From positions 18,210 through 82,209 of IMG/VR virus record IMGVR_UViG_3300035396_000186: a stretch of DNA of 64,000 nt; one strand, given 5' to 3'. How positions within the stretch are numbered: the first letter of the stretch is position 1; every line of letters begins with the position of its first letter. Positions 42,907-56,607 of the stretch are shown here, in pieces. The stretch is from a virus. Taxonomy: Duplodnaviria; Caudoviricetes. The translations under genes were made by a program, and so were the position numbers. A model generated the notes under the pieces. That model searched no databases. It saw only the letters and a list, made by a program, of their open reading frames with translations, and was not told the DNA's origin.

Positions 42907-43470
42907 TTAAGATCGTAGTTTTACTTTGACGTAGTCTCGTTCTTTCAGAAAGTACTCTTTAGTTTCTCTATTGTTCGCATATACTATCCACGGATACTCA
43001 CCACTATAATAATCAACAATGAAACTCTTTGCATCGGCAATTTGACCAAACACTCCTACGACATATTTGTTCTGTCTATTTGCACCGACTAAATAAACAA
43101 ATACTAGAACCTTACGTCCTACGTCTAATATTCTCATCTTCGGTGTCAAATTTATGCTTCGCTGTTCAGATAGTATTTTATATTCTTTTTGTTTATACTG
43201 ATCTATTACATAACGATATTGAACTAATCTTGAAAGTCTATCTGATACAGAAGTAAATAATACTAATTTAATATCTTCTAGTTTAATATTGAAATCGTTG
43301 ATACTAAACTCACATGCCTCTATTTCGCACAGAATACGCCCTAGAATCAATTTAGTTTGATTACTGTGTAGAATGTACACCCTATTAGGATTAGTCAATT
43401 CTAGGGCTATTACAGAAGCTGTGGGAAGGCTCTTAATTTGTAACAGGATATCGGAATAGTCAGTATTCAT
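42907..43470 (-). CDS. Hypothetical protein, possibly GIY-YIG-like fold
   Basis: 187-aa ORF with its own TAACAACT motif upstream; RVYILHS weakly nuclease-like. Confidence 0.45.
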   Translation of the reverse strand: MNTDYSDILLQIKSLPTASVIALELTNPNRVYILHSNQTKLILGRILCEIEACEFSINDFNIKLEDIKLVLFTSVSDRLSRLVQYRYVIDQYKQKEYKILSEQRSINLTPKMRILDVGRKVLVFVYLVGANRQNKYVVGVFGQIADAKSFIVDYYSGEYPWIVYANNRETKEYFLKERDYVKVKLRS

Positions 43471-43670
43471 GTTTCTATACTCCGTAGGTTATCACAATTT
43501 GCTATAACCTCAATACTATAAATAGAAATACTTTAAGTTTCTATAAGAAGTTGTTACTTAATATTACAATATAAGATCGGGAAAATCAAGCGTATGTATG
43601 TAACCGAATTTGTTAGGAAGTAAAATTATGTTTCTATAGTTAGAATTTACTAAAAATTGTGCTAGCTAAG

Positions 43671-43822
43671 CCTACACCACACCAACCACCAAGCCTACCC
43701 TACCCCCCCTACCTACGTCCTGCCATCCCCATGCCATAGACCTAGCCTCAACCCATAGCCTATACCCTAGCCCATGCCTCATCATGCTGATACTACAGGC
43801 ATACCCATAGACTATACCCTAA
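43671..43822. repeat. C-rich/G-poor tract with imperfect direct repeats
   Basis: CCTACC/CCCATAG units; CCCATAG(C/A)CTATACCCTA at 43752 and 43804. Confidence 0.7.
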
Positions 43823-43912
43823 GCATATACTATTTAGATTATAATACTATAAGCTATTATTGTTTATAGATATACTAAACGTTTTATATACTAGACTATA
43901 TGTTATTGCTAA

Positions 43913-43974
43913 TTGCATAATGCAATATTCTTGCATGAAGGAATTGCAGATTGCAAGATAATTGCACCGTGCAA
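43913..43974. promoter_or_regulatory. Three TTGCA-N3-TGCAA inverted-repeat boxes
   Basis: 43913-43925, 43944-43956, 43962-43974. Confidence 0.55.
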
Positions 43975-44167
43975 TAGTGGATTTGAGGTGAGGGATAAGT
44001 GTTGTTGACCACATCTTTATCCATTCTTTTTATTTATATCCTATTTAGTCTTATCCCATTTGGGATCAGTATATTTTATTTATATATTGATTGTTATATA
44101 AACGTATTATACGACACTAAACTTGTTATAACTTGTATTCCTGCTCAACATATTGTACACTGTCAGT

Positions 44168-44692
44168 ATGATTATATTCCTACTATCTCTACTAATTTCG
44201 TTTAGCTACTCCGCAGATCAACTTGAGTTATCATATTCGTTTCTAAGTTATCATGTTCCTAATAACCCCACAGACTCACACAAGTACTCCAACAAGCTCG
44301 GCAATGGTCAAGCCATAACTAATCCACTCTTAGGACTAAGACGTACCAGAACTAGTAAGAACGGCTCATATGAGGCGTTAACTGTGTTCTCTGGTTCTAA
44401 CAGCGTTGGTACTAATATGTCAGGACTTGTATACTCTACAGGTGAGTTCATCGATTCTAACTGGTACATTGGTTTTGTAGTTGGTGGCTATACTCAATCT
44501 CGTAGTGAGTTCAGACACAGAGGTATTGAGACTATGGGAGTTGGGATCACTCACGATCAAGAGATTCAACCCATTGTTGGGGCAGAAGTAGGCTACAAGT
44601 ATGATATCAATTCTAAGTGGTTTATTAGACAGAACAATGTTATAACCCCATTTATAACTAATCATAGTCTGTCCATAGGGTTCTCGTTCTGA
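44168..44692 (+). CDS. Outer-membrane beta-barrel protein, PagP-like
   Basis: Signal peptide, alternating beta-strands, F-SNSVG and GFVVGGY motifs, terminal Phe. Confidence 0.55.
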   Translation: MIIFLLSLLISFSYSADQLELSYSFLSYHVPNNPTDSHKYSNKLGNGQAITNPLLGLRRTRTSKNGSYEALTVFSGSNSVGTNMSGLVYSTGEFIDSNWYIGFVVGGYTQSRSEFRHRGIETMGVGITHDQEIQPIVGAEVGYKYDINSKWFIRQNNVITPFITNHSLSIGFSF

Positions 44693-44837
44693 TTGACTAG
44701 AGCTGCGCAGTTTGTCACTGATTTAGTATCTCTTTGCTACCAGTTTAGTGTCAATCTGATACCGATGTAGTCAGTATGATACCATCTAGTTTTTATTGAA
44801 CATCCCTGTTATTAAGTACATCCCATTTTCCTAGAGT

Positions 44838-44853
44838 TGGCATTAAGCTTGCA
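44838..44853 (+). promoter_or_regulatory. Sigma54 (-24/-12) promoter
   Basis: TGGCATTAAGCTTGCA: GG-N10-GC with TGGCA and TTGCA boxes. Confidence 0.7.
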
Positions 44854-45001
44854 ATGTATATTGTTAAGCAGGACGAAGCGAGCAGCTTCATGGAGAGTCG
44901 AAGGCGAGCTAGTAGAAGCTCAACGTCTTTAACTCTAAGTTCTAACCGGATAGCTCAAGGGTAACGCTATAGGGGATAACATCCCTACAATCAATCATAA
45001 C

Positions 45002-45073
45002 AAGACGAAATAAGGCGAGTACGTTTAAACGTAGTTGCCTTATAGTACGTTGATAACGTACCTGAAGAGTCTT
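45002..45073 (+). ncRNA. Type II hammerhead ribozyme
   Basis: AAGAC-GAAA-TAAGGC..GCCTTA-TA-GTACGTT(GAT)AACGTAC-CTGAAGA-GTCTT: complete core and stems I-III. Confidence 0.9.
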
Positions 45074-45091
45074 AATAACAAGGGAGTATAT

Positions 45092-45169
45092 ATGACATTT
45101 GAAATATTCTTTTACACAACTGCAATCCTATTAGTATTCAAGTCTATCATAATAACAATGAGCAGATAG
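45092..45169 (+). CDS. 25-aa hydrophobic peptide after ribozyme (not in ORF track)
   Basis: AGGGAG RBS; MTFEIFFYTTAILLVFKSIIITMSR. Confidence 0.45.
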   Translation: MTFEIFFYTTAILLVFKSIIITMSR

Positions 45170-45189
45170 TTTATAACTAAGAGGTATTT

Positions 45190-45375
45190 ATGTGGTATTG
45201 CACAGAACATTTCAATTTAAGAGTGAGACAACGTGGGTTCTGCAAACAAGATATACTTAGTACTCTTAGACATGGATACAAGGTTTTTATAGCCGATAGT
45301 GTCCATGTATGCTACAATGGAATCACTATTGTAGTTGATGGCAACAAACTAATAACTATTTATAGAGGTAATTAA
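45190..45375 (+). CDS. DUF4258-like small protein
   Basis: TEHFNLRVRQRGFCKQDI...LITIY pattern. Confidence 0.5.
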   Translation: MWYCTEHFNLRVRQRGFCKQDILSTLRHGYKVFIADSVHVCYNGITIVVDGNKLITIYRGN

Positions 45376-53161: not shown

Positions 53162-53770
53162 ATGAAATTTAAAATCAGACATGATATACAAAAAGTGAAC
53201 ATCTATGGTCAAACTCGATATAGAATTGAATCATTAAAAGATTTCAAAGATGTTAAGGCTGGTGATCTTGGAGGTTGGGTTACAATGGAAGAGAATCTCT
53301 CCCACTATGGCGATTGTTGGATTTACGATGATGCTGTAGTCCGAGATGATGCGGTTGTTTGTGAGAACGCTAGCGTCCATGGTAAGTCTAGTATTTCAGA
53401 AAATTCTCGAATAAGTGGAGATGCTATAGTATCAGGTGAAACACACGTTTCAGATAATGCATGGATTTATGGTAATGCTCAAGTTTGTGAGGGAGCCCTT
53501 GTTGATCAGAATGCTCGAGTCTATGGAAATGCGATAGTTTCAGGTCAAGCAAAAGTTCGTGGGAGAGCTAAGGTCTTTGGTAACTCAAGACTTACTGATT
53601 ATGTTAATGTTTCAGGTAACGTTACTATTAATGGTGACTTCGAGATTAAGGGTGAAAGAAAATCCTCTGGTGATATGAACATTTGGAACTCTGGACCAGA
53701 AGATAACATTAAGATCGTTAAGTGGAATGTTGCCGTTAAAGATAATTATCTAAAGGAGTTAAAGAAATGA
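53162..53770 (+). CDS. Left-handed beta-helix (hexapeptide repeat) protein
   Basis: RIESLKDFKDVKAGDLGGWV...NLSHYGDCWIYDDAVV then repeats such as GNAQV/GNAIV. Confidence 0.8.
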   Translation: MKFKIRHDIQKVNIYGQTRYRIESLKDFKDVKAGDLGGWVTMEENLSHYGDCWIYDDAVVRDDAVVCENASVHGKSSISENSRISGDAIVSGETHVSDNAWIYGNAQVCEGALVDQNARVYGNAIVSGQAKVRGRAKVFGNSRLTDYVNVSGNVTINGDFEIKGERKSSGDMNIWNSGPEDNIKIVKWNVAVKDNYLKELKK

Positions 53771-53991
53771 AAAAAGTAAAAGTGTATAGACATTTCTTAT
53801 TATGTCCAATATGTAAAGAAGAGATTACATCTAAACATAGACACGATTTCCGTCATTGTAAATGTGGTGAATGTTTTGTTGATGGTGGATTAGACTACTT
53901 TAGATTTGGATATGGAGATAAGTCAAGTAAGTTATTATTTACTAAAGCTGGTAAGATGAGTAAGAAATACTTTAGAACTGAGGAGGTATAG
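53767..53991 (+). CDS. Cys-rich small phage protein
   Basis: CPICKEEITSKHRHDFRHCKCGECFVDGG. Confidence 0.65.
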   Translation: MKKVKVYRHFLLCPICKEEITSKHRHDFRHCKCGECFVDGGLDYFRFGYGDKSSKLLFTKAGKMSKKYFRTEEV

Positions 53992-54074
53992 AATGGAAGT
54001 TAACTATTTTTACTTTGGAGCATTCGTATTCTTTTTTGTAGGTATAGGTTTATACTTTTTGAACAAAAAATAGA

Positions 54075-54321
54075 TACTGTAAGCAGCGAACCCACGCTAT
54101 GAGGAACGTAAAGAAATGGCTAACAAACTGATTGTCGTGTATGCCTCGTGAAGCTACACTAGAGCCGACATAAACCGACCAACTAGACGGTTACTCTATA
54201 AGCGTTTTGGAGAAGCATAGAGCGTAAGGCCTCGTGGGATTGAAGAGTACTAGCTTGTTATTAGTTTGGCTAGGAAATGAGCGTAGACATAGCCCTTAGA
54301 TGAATCTGTAATGTAGTCTAT
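54075..54321. ncRNA. Unclassified structured RNA candidate
   Basis: GC-elevated intergenic segment with at least six complementary helices including crossing pairs. Confidence 0.55.
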
Positions 54322-54394
54322 TGGTCTCTAATATGATGTAACTAACGTAAAGTCAAGTACATATAGATAGAGACTTGCCTTTTTACGAATTTAA

Positions 54395-54423
54395 TTGCAT
54401 TCATATTGTTCTTGTATTATAAT
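54395..54423 (+). promoter_or_regulatory. Sigma70-type promoter
   Basis: TTGCAT-N17-TATAAT before 54445. Confidence 0.6.
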
Positions 54424-54444
54424 ATTAATTAGGAGATACAATAT

Positions 54445-55048
54445 ATGATGAAGTTATTAATTATACAAACAATTATTATGTATGCGATAGGTATGTTCTT
54501 TTTATGTGCATTTGAAGTAACTGCTTCAGAATTACGGTTATTTAGATATGTAGTATCTACATATACTACAACTAATCTATATAAAGCACATCCAAAAATA
54601 ATAAAAAAGCGGTTGTCAACTCGTGATAAAAATGCTATAATACTAGCTAGAGGTTTATAATGGATAATGAGAATTTAAAGAATTTTATACGTGAGCTACT
54701 TGTTTTAGCTAAAAAATATGACATCCAGGACATTCATAGTTGTGGATGTTGTGATGGAGCTCTACTTTCGGATACTAAAAATGAGGTGAGTTTTTGTTCG
54801 TTAGACAACTTAAAACAGTTTATTGATTGTCCTAATAAGGACGTGTAGTTATGTACGATATAGATGATATTATATACTATGATTCACTAGAAGATGCTTG
54901 TGACATAGTAGATGACGTTGACGAAGAAACTGACTCGATTACAGTTTCAAGATACGATTGTGAAGGCAACTTAATTGGTAAACAACAATGTGCTTTAGAA
55001 TGGTATGAGTTACAGGTTCATACGCTAAAGGGTATAAAAATAATTTAG
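54445..55048 (+). other. Three small hypothetical CDS (54445..54660, 54660..54848, 54851..55048)
   Basis: Co-oriented, coupled starts/stops. Confidence 0.5.
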
Positions 55049-55935: not shown

Positions 55936-56607
55936 ATGATTAAGCTAGAGTATAATAAGTATATAGATCATACATTGCTTAAGTCTACAGCAACTTATGA
56001 AGACATAACTAAACTATGTGAAGAAGCTAAACAATATAAATTTGCTAGTGTTTGTATTCATCCAACTTTTGTTCCGATGGCTAAGAACATATTAGCTAAT
56101 ACTGATGTAAAAATATGTACAGTAGTTGGGTTTCCTTTAGGATTGAATGATACAAAAATCAAAGCTACTGAAGCGAGATTAGCAATTAAGAATGGTGCAG
56201 ATGAAATTGATATGGTCATGAACATGGGTTACTTTAAAAGTCAGAGATATGATCTAGTTCAAAGAGATATCAAAAGGGTAAAGAAAGCTGTAGGAGATAA
56301 GATACTTAAAGTTATAGTTGAAACTTGTTTACTAAGCAACATAGAGAAATCTATAATAGCTAACTTAATTCGTATGGCTAAAGCTGACTTCATTAAAACA
56401 TCTACCGGCTTTTCAACTAGCGGAGCGGATGTTGAAGATATTAAACTATTTAAAGATATACTTGGAGATTCATTAAAGATCAAGGCATCAGGAGGAATAA
56501 AGAACTCTAAGGATGCAATATCTATGATAAATGCTGGAGCTGATAGATTAGGTACTAGCTCTGGAGTTGAAATCATGTTAGGATTAGATAGTAACAAGGA
56601 GTATTAA
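55936..56607 (+). CDS. deoC: Deoxyribose-phosphate aldolase
   Basis: IDHTLLK, CTVVGFPLG, GADEIDMV, LKVIVET, FIKTSTGF, IKASGGI, GADRLGTS. Confidence 0.95.
   Translation: MIKLEYNKYIDHTLLKSTATYEDITKLCEEAKQYKFASVCIHPTFVPMAKNILANTDVKICTVVGFPLGLNDTKIKATEARLAIKNGADEIDMVMNMGYFKSQRYDLVQRDIKRVKKAVGDKILKVIVETCLLSNIEKSIIANLIRMAKADFIKTSTGFSTSGADVEDIKLFKDILGDSLKIKASGGIKNSKDAISMINAGADRLGTSSGVEIMLGLDSNKEY

What the first reader, a model, noticed from the sequence alone, without database searches (positions are those of the whole stretch)
54075..54321. Unclassified ~250-nt structured RNA with crossing helices
Seen helices: CCCACG(54091-96)/CGTGGG(54233-38); CAAACTGAT(54124-32)/ATTAGTTTG(54260-68), which crosses the first and so is a pseudoknot; TGTCG/CGACA enclosing GTGTA/TACAC; AACCG/CGGTT; CTCTAT/ATAGAG; GCTATG(54096-101)/CATAGC(54288-93). 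A weak minus-strand promoter (TTGACT 54351-56, N17, TATTAG) and a T-run near 54065 could define a minus-strand RNA, and two hairpins gain G-U pairs on that strand. On the plus strand there is a loose likeness to a tmRNA mRNA-like domain (A-rich run, GCT AAC..., ORF ANKLIVVYAS, stop in a hairpin loop), but no tRNA-like domain. Class and strand are unresolved.
Basis: partly seen in the sequence, partly recalled or inferred. Interest (0 to 1): 0.72.

Follow-up and report, generated by a model that had tools for sequence, protein, structure and literature searches.

The report
GC-rich untranslated tail of phage operon
The flagged stretch is a real gene-free, unusually GC-rich ~300-base spacer at the end of a phage early-gene block, but its "helices" are no more than chance gives. 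It is probably an untranslated RNA tail with a few small hairpins, not a demonstrable new folded RNA.

Summary
They are not above chance: there are 79 helices of at least 6 bp against 87±12 in shuffles, and the longest is 9 bp against a shuffle mean of 10.4. Folding energy is unremarkable on both strands (z from +2.0 to -0.5). Rfam and ARAGORN find nothing, so the tmRNA likeness is refuted.

The stretch is still not ordinary filler:
- It has stops in all six frames.
- Its GC content (43%) is in the top 0.2% of windows of a 32%-GC, 82-kb phage from a microbial mat.
- Short contigs from sediment and lake metagenomes match 54097-54377 at about 96%, and one diverges just after 54377.
- Their few differences fall in one hairpin loop, or change three CTCTA/TAGAG copies in a way that keeps base pairs (post hoc P 0.004-0.03). 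Unbiased tests against predicted folds show nothing (P 0.2-0.5).

Best reading, at about 40%: a plus-strand untranslated tail of the early operon with local hairpins. It ends in a long hairpin (54323-54375) and a U-run, and is followed by a sigma70-like promoter. The pseudoknot, the minus-strand promoter and any family assignment are unsupported. No more distant relatives could be found, so covariation stays untestable.

The parts
53767..53991 (+). Upstream gene: 74-aa zinc-ribbon-like protein (DUF7695), part of the same plus-strand block of small early-type genes
   Evidence: ORF list; Pfam PF24749 at E 1.7e-14. The only relatives are at 60% identity or less.
53993..54073 (+). 26-codon hydrophobic ORF (MEVNYFYFGAFVFFFVGIGLYFLNKK) with a strong GAGGAGG Shine-Dalgarno; the last reading frame before the gap
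   Evidence: Read from the sequence only; no homologue test is possible at this length.
54085..54322 (+). The 5' limit is approximate: GC rises near 54083, and the outside contigs cover it only from 54097.
   Evidence: Stops in all frames. GC in the top 0.2% of genome windows. About 96% identical contigs in three other runs. No Rfam match. Single copy in the genome.
54174..54192 (+). Small hairpin AACCG / CGGTT with a 9-nt loop that varies between lineages
   Evidence: C54183T and G54186A (sediment run), and T54184A plus a +C after 54185 (lake/freshwater runs), all lie in the loop. The fold alone gives -4.1 kcal/mol, z -1.3.
54194..54222 (+). Hairpin CTCTAT / ATAGAG (6 bp, 17-nt loop) with a possible compensatory double change
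   Evidence: In the lake/freshwater contigs A54198G and T54218C turn an A-U pair into G-C. Chance of at least one such double is 0.03-0.26 depending on the helix criterion. The same two changes also fit alternative helices as wobble-to-Watson-Crick changes.
54323..54375 (+). Long imperfect terminal hairpin (GGTCTCTA-ATATG ... CATAT-AGA-TAGAGACT). This is the only locally notable fold, and the conserved block ends just after it.
   Evidence: -14.5 kcal/mol, z -1.77 on plus; -16.0 kcal/mol, z -2.96 on minus. A54330G gives G-U on the plus strand but C-A on the minus strand. The lake contig stays alike up to 54377 and then diverges (tables 7 and 8).
54380..54384 (+). T5 run four bases after the terminal hairpin; together they make a weak, non-canonical intrinsic-terminator-like site
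   Evidence: Sequence. Not listed by the terminator scan. The T-run is absent from the 30 flanking letters of the lake contig (table 7).
54395..54423 (+). Sigma70-like promoter for the next gene: TTGCAT (3 of 6), N17, TATAAT (6 of 6)
   Evidence: Sequence and pattern hit. Not listed by the scan because of its weak -35. ATTGCATT also appears in the divergent flank of the lake contig.
54445..54660 (+). Downstream 71-aa ORF with AGGAG Shine-Dalgarno; an orphan gene
   Evidence: It found only itself among 5.8 billion protein clusters. No Pfam or PHROG family.

Best explanation
The stretch is the untranslated 3' tail of a plus-strand operon of small early-type phage genes. Transcription that has passed the DUF7695 gene and the 26-codon ORF runs on through about 300 GC-enriched, untranslatable bases (about 54085-54377). 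This tail forms a chain of small local hairpins, not one global pseudoknotted fold. It ends in a long imperfect hairpin (54323-54375) followed by a short U-run. A sigma70-like promoter and ribosome-binding site then start the next gene.

Inferred role: an operon-end module that stops or attenuates read-through and gives the early transcript a structured, nuclease-resistant 3' end. It may be released as a stable 3'-derived RNA.

Shown: it is non-coding, GC-anomalous, single-copy and present at near-identity in other metagenomes; the hairpin, U-run and promoter lie in that order; and the variants are compatible with three local hairpins on the plus strand.

Inferred: that it is transcribed, which strand is read, where the ends lie, and any function.
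For: - No reading frame: there are stops in all six frames. Translated open stretches have no Pfam, PHROG or database relatives.
- GC of 43% against 32% for the genome, the top 0.2% of windows. Two other GC-high, gene-free gaps of this phage lie at 43.5-45.2 kb; one of them holds the leader and hammerhead that other notes describe.
- All neighbouring genes are on the plus strand, and no plus-strand promoter lies between them and the element.
- The order is terminal hairpin (z -1.8), T5 run, then a TATAAT promoter.
- Contigs from a sediment run (54097-54247) and from lake/freshwater runs (54145-54377) are about 96% identical. The lake contig becomes unlike just after 54377, at the foot of the terminal hairpin.
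- Variant pattern: four events in the loop of AACCG/CGGTT; A54198G plus T54218C keep a pair in CTCTAT/ATAGAG; A54330G and C54288T give G-U pairs on the plus strand only.
- Three of the seven lake substitutions change the same position of three CTCTA/TAGAG copies. The chance of at least two compensatory doubles is 0.004-0.033.
Against: - No thermodynamic signal for the whole element on either strand, and helices are at chance level.
- Unbiased tests show nothing. The lake variants do not preserve MFE better than random substitution sets. They do not break fewer pairs of reference-only predicted folds, global or span-limited, than random sets do (P 0.2-0.55). The supportive variant statistics are therefore post hoc.
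- The hairpin plus U-run fails the consensus terminator scan. The U-run is missing from the lake contig's flank.
- The terminal hairpin folds better on the minus strand.
- The outside contigs are 151-265 nt at depth 2, and two of the runs may be one data set.
- The run search was seeded with only 53700-54700, so it is not shown that the element is more conserved than its neighbouring genes.
Confidence: 0.4

Rival explanations
1. A stand-alone, trans-acting structured non-coding RNA of a new class. It would be cut out of the early transcript and act on a host or phage target, for example as a decoy or sponge.
For: - A GC-rich, gene-free island in an AT-rich genome.
- About 96% identity in mat, sediment and lake runs, while the 30 letters after 54377 diverge.
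- Coordinated CTCTA/TAGAG changes.
- The phage is said by other notes to process RNA elsewhere, through a hammerhead (not recovered by Rfam).
Against: - z-scores of 0 or above and helices at chance level.
- No own promoter and no canonical terminator.
- No Rfam family even at E up to 10.
- No homologue in IMG/VR, JGI metagenomes, GTDB genomes, INPHARED or PLSDB.
- The long-range helices take pair-breaking changes.
Confidence: 0.15
2. Functionless relic DNA: a decayed gene, or a foreign fragment not yet adjusted to the phage's base composition. Only the terminal hairpin and the promoter would be functional. The outside contigs would simply come from close relatives sampled at very low depth.
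For: - No fold signal.
- The GC differs from the genome, as foreign DNA would.
- The minus frame 54390 to 54013 has no TAA or TGA for 126 codons and is broken only by five TAG (P about 0.01). The lake variant has CAG at two of these, plus its own CGA to TGA change and a +1 insertion. That is the pattern of independent nonsense decay.
- Mosaic boundaries at promoter/stem-loop cassettes are known in phages (PMC2839356).
Against: - The read-through product has no Pfam, PHROG or 5.8-billion-cluster relatives and no start codon for about 70 codons.
- Phage genomes rarely keep 300 nt of dead DNA.
- The variants cluster in a loop and in paired motif copies.
Confidence: 0.22
3. A minus-strand antisense RNA. 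It would be convergent on and overlapping the 3' region of the 26-codon hydrophobic ORF, giving a type I toxin-antitoxin-like pair.
For: - A 26-aa hydrophobic peptide with a KK tail and a strong Shine-Dalgarno.
- TTGACT, N17, TATTAG on the minus strand, and an A-run at 54064-69.
- The terminal hairpin is more stable on the minus strand (z -2.96).
Against: - The -10 lacks the invariant T and is not called by the scan. A54330G weakens it further, to TATCAG.
- No hairpin lies directly before the minus-strand U-run.
- C54288T and A54330G give A-C or C-A mismatches on the minus strand in the local hairpins.
- The peptide sits in an operon with upstream genes, without a promoter of its own.
Confidence: 0.07
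4. A DNA-level element: an array of protein-binding sites (CTCTA/TAGAG, ACTAGA) for a phage regulator, or for replication or recombination, not an RNA.
For: - CTCTA/TAGAG occurs 5 times against 0.64 expected, and TAGA 10 times against 3.1 expected.
- Three of the five copies change at the same motif position in the lake variant.
- An operator-like cluster of ATTGCA palindromes exists elsewhere in this phage.
Against: - The enrichment does not survive correction for the number of k-mers tested.
- Only three of five copies changed, and those three are the ones that can pair with each other.
- The motif copies have no regular spacing.
- A candidate iteron origin lies elsewhere, according to another note.
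Confidence: 0.08
5. One or more very small proteins are encoded, for example the 11-aa MANKLIVVYAS at 54117 or the 21-aa GTG-start ORF at 54234-54299.
For: G54234A turns the GTG start of the 21-aa ORF into ATG in the lake variant.
Against: Weak or badly spaced ribosome-binding sites. Both other changes inside the 21-aa ORF are non-synonymous (H to Y and S to N). The ORFs cover under a third of the conserved block.
Confidence: 0.03

Closest known systems
Promoter-early stem-loop (PeSL) cassettes of T4-type phages (Arbiol et al. 2010, PMC2839356; Comeau et al. 2014, PMC4122927)
   Same: The 54323-54444 part has the same layout between small orphan early genes: a stem-loop able to attenuate upstream transcription, then a sigma70-like promoter, a Shine-Dalgarno and an ORFan. 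As at PeSL-mediated mosaic joints, the similarity to a relative breaks off at this point.
   Different: PeSLs are about 100-bp units repeated many times per genome with conserved sequence. Here no second copy of the cassette was found. The 240-nt GC-rich stretch upstream has no PeSL counterpart. The host and phage group are unrelated to T4.
Structured 3' ends of phage early transcripts and 3'-UTR-derived bacterial small RNAs (T7 early RNase III hairpins, lambda sib, CpxQ-type sRNAs); cited from general knowledge, not tested here
   Same: An untranslated, hairpin-bearing tail at the end of an operon, closed by a long imperfect hairpin of about 20 bp.
   Different: No processing site, transcript end or target has been shown. 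At 300 nt this is long for such a tail.
Large or orphan phage-associated structured RNAs (GOLLD, ROOL, HEARO, EGFOA and similar Rfam families)
   Same: A GC-enriched, gene-free island in a phage with no obvious function.
   Different: No match to any of 4227 Rfam models, even at E up to 10. It is much shorter, with no fold-energy signal and no homologue set.
tmRNA
   Different: No tRNA-like domain, no ARAGORN or Rfam call, and no typical tag ending.
Type I toxin-antitoxin loci with 3'-overlapping antisense RNAs (txpA/RatA, bsrG/SR4 of Bacillus prophages); cited from general knowledge
   Same: A short hydrophobic peptide gene followed by a long untranslated region on which a convergent RNA could be made.
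   Different: No credible minus-strand promoter or terminator, and the peptide gene lies inside an operon.

Membership tests
tmRNA | tRNA-like domain formed by the 5' and 3' ends, with an acceptor stem and T-arm | tested here: not met
   ARAGORN finds no tRNA or tmRNA in the window or genome. Only a junk permuted call appears at the 60% threshold.
tmRNA | Match to the tmRNA covariance models | tested here: not met
   No Rfam hit at gathering score or at E up to 10.
Group I intron | Conserved P3-P9 core recognised by RF00028 | tested here: not met
   No hit at E up to 10 with permissive filters.
Group I intron | Interrupts a host gene whose exons join in frame | tested here: not met
   The flanks are two complete small ORFs, each with its own ribosome-binding site and start or stop.
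Hammerhead and other small self-cleaving ribozymes | Catalytic core words (CUGANGA and GAAA for the hammerhead) or a match to an Rfam ribozyme model | tested here: not met
   No CTGANGA, CGAAA or GAAAC on either strand of 54000-54450, and no Rfam ribozyme hit.
Known large phage or bacterial ncRNAs (GOLLD, ROOL, HEARO, OLE, raiA, 6S, Y-RNA-like) | Match to the family covariance model | tested here: not met
   0 of 4227 families at gathering score. Only snoRNA, PhrS and CrcZ noise at E 0.56-9.5.
Structured ncRNA (generic) | Folding energy clearly below that of dinucleotide shuffles | tested here: not met
   z of +2.01 and +0.49, and +0.70 and -0.47. Only the 54318-54390 hairpin reaches z -1.8 (plus) and -3.0 (minus).
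Structured ncRNA (generic) | Compensatory base changes across homologues | tested here: inconclusive
   Only three sequences at about 96% identity are available. There are one or two compensatory doubles (P 0.004-0.26, post hoc), but no signal against reference-only folds.
Intrinsic (Rho-independent) terminator | G+C-rich stem with a short loop, directly followed by a U-run | tested here: inconclusive
   The consensus scan finds none in 53700-54700. What exists is a long A+U-rich imperfect hairpin followed, four bases later, by T5. The T-run is absent from the lake contig.
PeSL-type promoter/stem-loop cassette | Stem-loop plus sigma70-like promoter plus Shine-Dalgarno directly upstream of an ORFan | tested here: met
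   Hairpin at 54323-75, TTGCAT-N17-TATAAT at 54395-54423, AGGAG, then an orphan 71-aa ORF.
PeSL-type promoter/stem-loop cassette | Many conserved copies per genome | tested here: not met
   Only four pattern matches in the window against 3.15 expected, and no second copy of the element in the 82-kb genome.
Type I toxin-antitoxin | Antisense RNA with its own promoter and terminator overlapping the toxin mRNA | tested here: not met
   The minus-strand -10 (TATTAG) is not called and is degraded by a natural variant. No terminator is found on the minus strand.
Stop-codon-recoded (TAG read as sense) phage gene | TAG not used as a terminator, and a suppressor tRNA present | tested here: not met
   TAG ends 14 of 49 ORFs of at least 150 aa, with short tails after it. 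The genome has no tRNA.

The most novel reading that the evidence does not exclude
The ~290-nt block 54085-54377 is a new class of phage non-coding RNA under very strong purifying selection. It stays about 96% identical in phages from mat, sediment and lake samples, while the spacer next to it has diverged beyond easy alignment. Its paired CTCTA/TAGAG hairpins co-vary. It would act in trans early in infection, for example as a decoy for a host defence or an RNA-binding protein.
Probability: 0.12. Interest if true: 0.6.

Novelty: new member of a known kind. Interest (0 to 1): 0.27.

Why it matters
If the cautious reading is right, this is an ordinary operon boundary in a poorly known environmental phage, with an unusually long untranslated tail. 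It matters mainly as a caution: complementary 6-9-mers seen by eye in 300 bases do not show a fold. If the block does turn out to be held constant across habitats while its surroundings drift, it would be a compact, orphan phage RNA worth an expression and deletion test. The data available cannot decide this.

Tried and rejected
**Family and class searches**
- Rfam at gathering score over the whole window, and at E up to 10 over 53900-54500: nothing real.
- ARAGORN at normal and relaxed settings: no tRNA or tmRNA.
- Hammerhead core words: absent.

**Homologue hunt**
- INPHARED phages: none for the element. Only short hits elsewhere when a 7.5-kb query was used.
- PLSDB plasmids: none.
- Five exact-word or gapped scans of IMG/VR, one of JGI metagenomes and three of GTDB genomes. 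These gave only chance hits, checked by blastn and by eye. One 19-mer is shared with a small membrane-protein gene of an unrelated phage family.
- Loci around relatives of the two upstream proteins hold no copy by nhmmer and no comparable gene-free gap.
- TerL has no IMG/VR relative by exact peptides.
- The flanking 71-aa and 74-aa proteins have no close relatives.
- Looking for spurious ORFs laid over homologous elements was blank.
- Five genomes holding the nearest DeoC homologues, two of them sulfidic-cave MAGs, lack the element.
- This scan's own index has no look-alike.

**Expression**
- No RNA holder was listed by the look-up of sequencing runs.

**Coding readings**
- Open stretches have no Pfam match.
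- The TAG read-through of the minus frame has no Pfam, PHROG or database relatives.
- TAG recoding is rejected.

**Unbiased variant-versus-fold tests**
- No signal.

**Repeats**
- The 8-9-mer direct repeats (AACGTAAAG twice, GCCTCGTG twice) and the 21-nt repeat at 71% identity are at chance level.

Full report
**Setting.** The window is bases 18210-82209 of an 82,209-nt IMG/VR virus record estimated at 95% complete. It is AT-rich (32.5% GC) and comes from a microbial-mat metagenome. It carries a terminase, portal, major head protein and tail genes on the minus strand. A long block of small plus-strand genes of early type runs from about 45 kb to 57 kb. The genome has no tRNA or tmRNA. The phage has no close relative in INPHARED or IMG/VR.

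**What is at the coordinates.** The finding lies in a 371-nt gap (54074-54444). On one side is a 26-codon hydrophobic ORF (53993-54073), which follows a DUF7695 zinc-ribbon gene (Pfam E 1.7e-14). On the other side is an orphan 71-aa ORF starting at 54445. All six frames of the gap carry 6-14 stop codons. GC over 54085-54334 is 43.2%, three standard deviations above the genome mean and in the top 0.2% of 250-nt windows. The element occurs once in the genome.

**Is it more than chance?** As a fold, no.
- Counting all Watson-Crick or G-U helices of at least 6 bp in 54075-54390 gives 79, against 87 +/- 12 in shuffles.
- MFE z-scores are +2.01 (plus) and +0.49 (minus) for 54070-54345, and +0.70 and -0.47 for 54085-54377.
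- Of eight sub-segments folded alone, only 54318-54390 stands out. It is a long imperfect hairpin at 54323-54375, with z -1.77 on plus and -2.96 on minus.
- Rfam gives nothing at gathering score and only snoRNA-type noise at E 0.56-9.5.
- ARAGORN gives nothing, and hammerhead core words are absent.

The tmRNA likeness and any known ribozyme or intron class are therefore rejected.

**Relatives.** The one informative result came from public runs.
- Besides the probable source sample, a sediment run holds a 151-nt unitig matching 54097-54247 with four differences.
- A freshwater run and a lake-water run hold an identical 265-nt contig matching 54145-54377 with nine differences and one inserted base.
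- Beyond 54377 that contig runs on for 31 letters that no longer match at the 80% level, although ATTGCATT, which contains the -35 hexamer TTGCAT of the next promoter, recurs in them.

These contigs have depth 2, and the two lake runs may be one data set. The search was seeded with only 53700-54700. It therefore cannot be said that the element is better conserved than its neighbouring genes. All that is shown is that its 3' limit coincides with a sharp drop in similarity.

All other routes to homologues were blank.

**What the variants say.** Nine substitutions and one insertion are listed.
- Four events (C54183T and G54186A in sediment; T54184A and +C after 54185 in the lake contig) lie in the 9-nt loop of AACCG/CGGTT.
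- A54198G and T54218C turn an A-U pair of CTCTAT/ATAGAG into G-C.
- A54330G and C54288T give G-U pairs in the terminal hairpin and in GTAGAC/GTCTAT on the plus strand. On the minus strand both would be mismatches.
- A54198G, T54218C and A54330G all hit the same position of three of the five CTCTA/TAGAG copies.

The chance of at least one compensatory double is 0.03-0.26, and of at least two is 0.004-0.033, depending on the helix criterion. These figures are post hoc.

Tests fixed in advance show nothing:
- The lake variants change the MFE no less than random substitution sets do.
- Against reference-only MFE folds, global or limited to spans of 40-80 nt, they break 1-2 pairs where 2.2-2.7 are expected (P 0.2-0.55, both strands).
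- A three-sequence alifold gives no decision, and even offers alternative helices for the "compensatory" pair.

The pseudoknot helix has no variant.

**A side track.** The minus frame from 54390 to 54013 has no TAA or TGA for 126 codons and is broken only by five TAG codons (P about 0.01). The lake variant has CAG at two of them. Recoding is excluded: TAG ends 14 of 49 long ORFs, and there is no tRNA. The lake variant also carries a new TGA and a +1 insertion in this frame. The read-through product has no start codon for about 70 codons and no relative in Pfam, PHROGs or 5.8 billion protein clusters. A decayed minus-strand gene remains a possible origin of the DNA, but it is unsupported.

**Most likely mechanism.**
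- Neighbouring genes are all on the plus strand, and no plus-strand promoter lies between them and the element.
- The block ends in a long hairpin followed four bases later by T5. TTGCAT-N17-TATAAT (54395-54423), AGGAG and the next start codon follow.

I therefore read the block as the untranslated 3' tail of the early operon. It would carry a chain of small local hairpins and end in an attenuator or stabiliser hairpin, with a fresh promoter behind it. The hairpin-promoter-ORFan layout, and the break in similarity at that point, resemble the PeSL cassettes of T4-type phages, which are both terminators/promoters and recombination joints (PMC2839356). Unlike PeSLs, this cassette is not repeated in the genome.

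Confidence is about 0.4. Transcription, strand, ends and function are all inferred.

Rivals:
- relic DNA (0.22);
- a stand-alone new ncRNA (0.15);
- a DNA-binding-site array (0.08);
- a minus-strand antisense RNA with the hydrophobic peptide as a type I toxin (0.07);
- micro-ORFs (0.03).

**Verdict.** The element is best filed as an unusually long untranslated operon tail with a terminator-promoter junction. There is a small residual chance (about 0.12-0.15) that it is an orphan phage RNA.

Noticed in passing
window 43670-43830 (+): A ~160-nt tract that is C/A-rich and almost G-free, built of CCTA/GCCTA-like units. It lies inside the gene-free gap 43471-43846, next to the divergent control region. 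Purpose unknown.
   Followed up: no
window 43912-43975: Three closely spaced ATTGCA-N3-TGCAAK sites, two of them perfect palindromes. They give five pattern matches against 0.19 expected, which looks like a repressor or operator cluster. An AATTGCAT half-site overlaps the -35 of the promoter at 54393-54400.
   Followed up: partly
window 45002-45073: The type II hammerhead reported by other notes is not returned by Rfam at gathering score or at E up to 1 on 43300-45300. CGAAA and CUGAAGAG core words and the flanking stems are nevertheless visible in the sequence.
   Followed up: partly
window 44839-44855 (+): TGGCAT-N5-TTGCA, a near-consensus sigma54-type -24/-12 element ahead of the early leader. 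Seen while reading; it agrees with another note.
   Followed up: no
window 54013-54390 (-): A 126-codon frame with no TAA or TGA but five in-frame TAG. It has no relatives. TAG is a normal stop in this phage.
   Followed up: yes
window 54160-54372: CTCTA/TAGAG occurs five times against 0.64 expected. The lake/freshwater variant changes three copies at the same motif position, CTCTA to CTCTG. This could reflect base pairing, a mutational hot spot, or a co-varying binding site.
   Followed up: partly
window 55936-56607 (+): A phage-borne DeoC/LacD-family aldolase (Pfam E 4.8e-20). The nearest genome hits, at 50-56% identity, include Mycoplasmatota, Bacillota and Bacteroidota assemblies and two MAGs from a sulfidic cave mat. 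This is an auxiliary metabolic gene and gives no clear clue to the host.
   Followed up: partly
L024-L028 (IMG/VR contigs), about 1085-1103 in L024: A 19-mer of the element (AAGCGTTTTGGAGAAGCAT) recurs exactly inside the start of a small membrane-protein gene (MGWLRKRFGEAST...) of an unrelated phage lineage. Nothing around it is similar, so it is taken as chance.
   Followed up: yes
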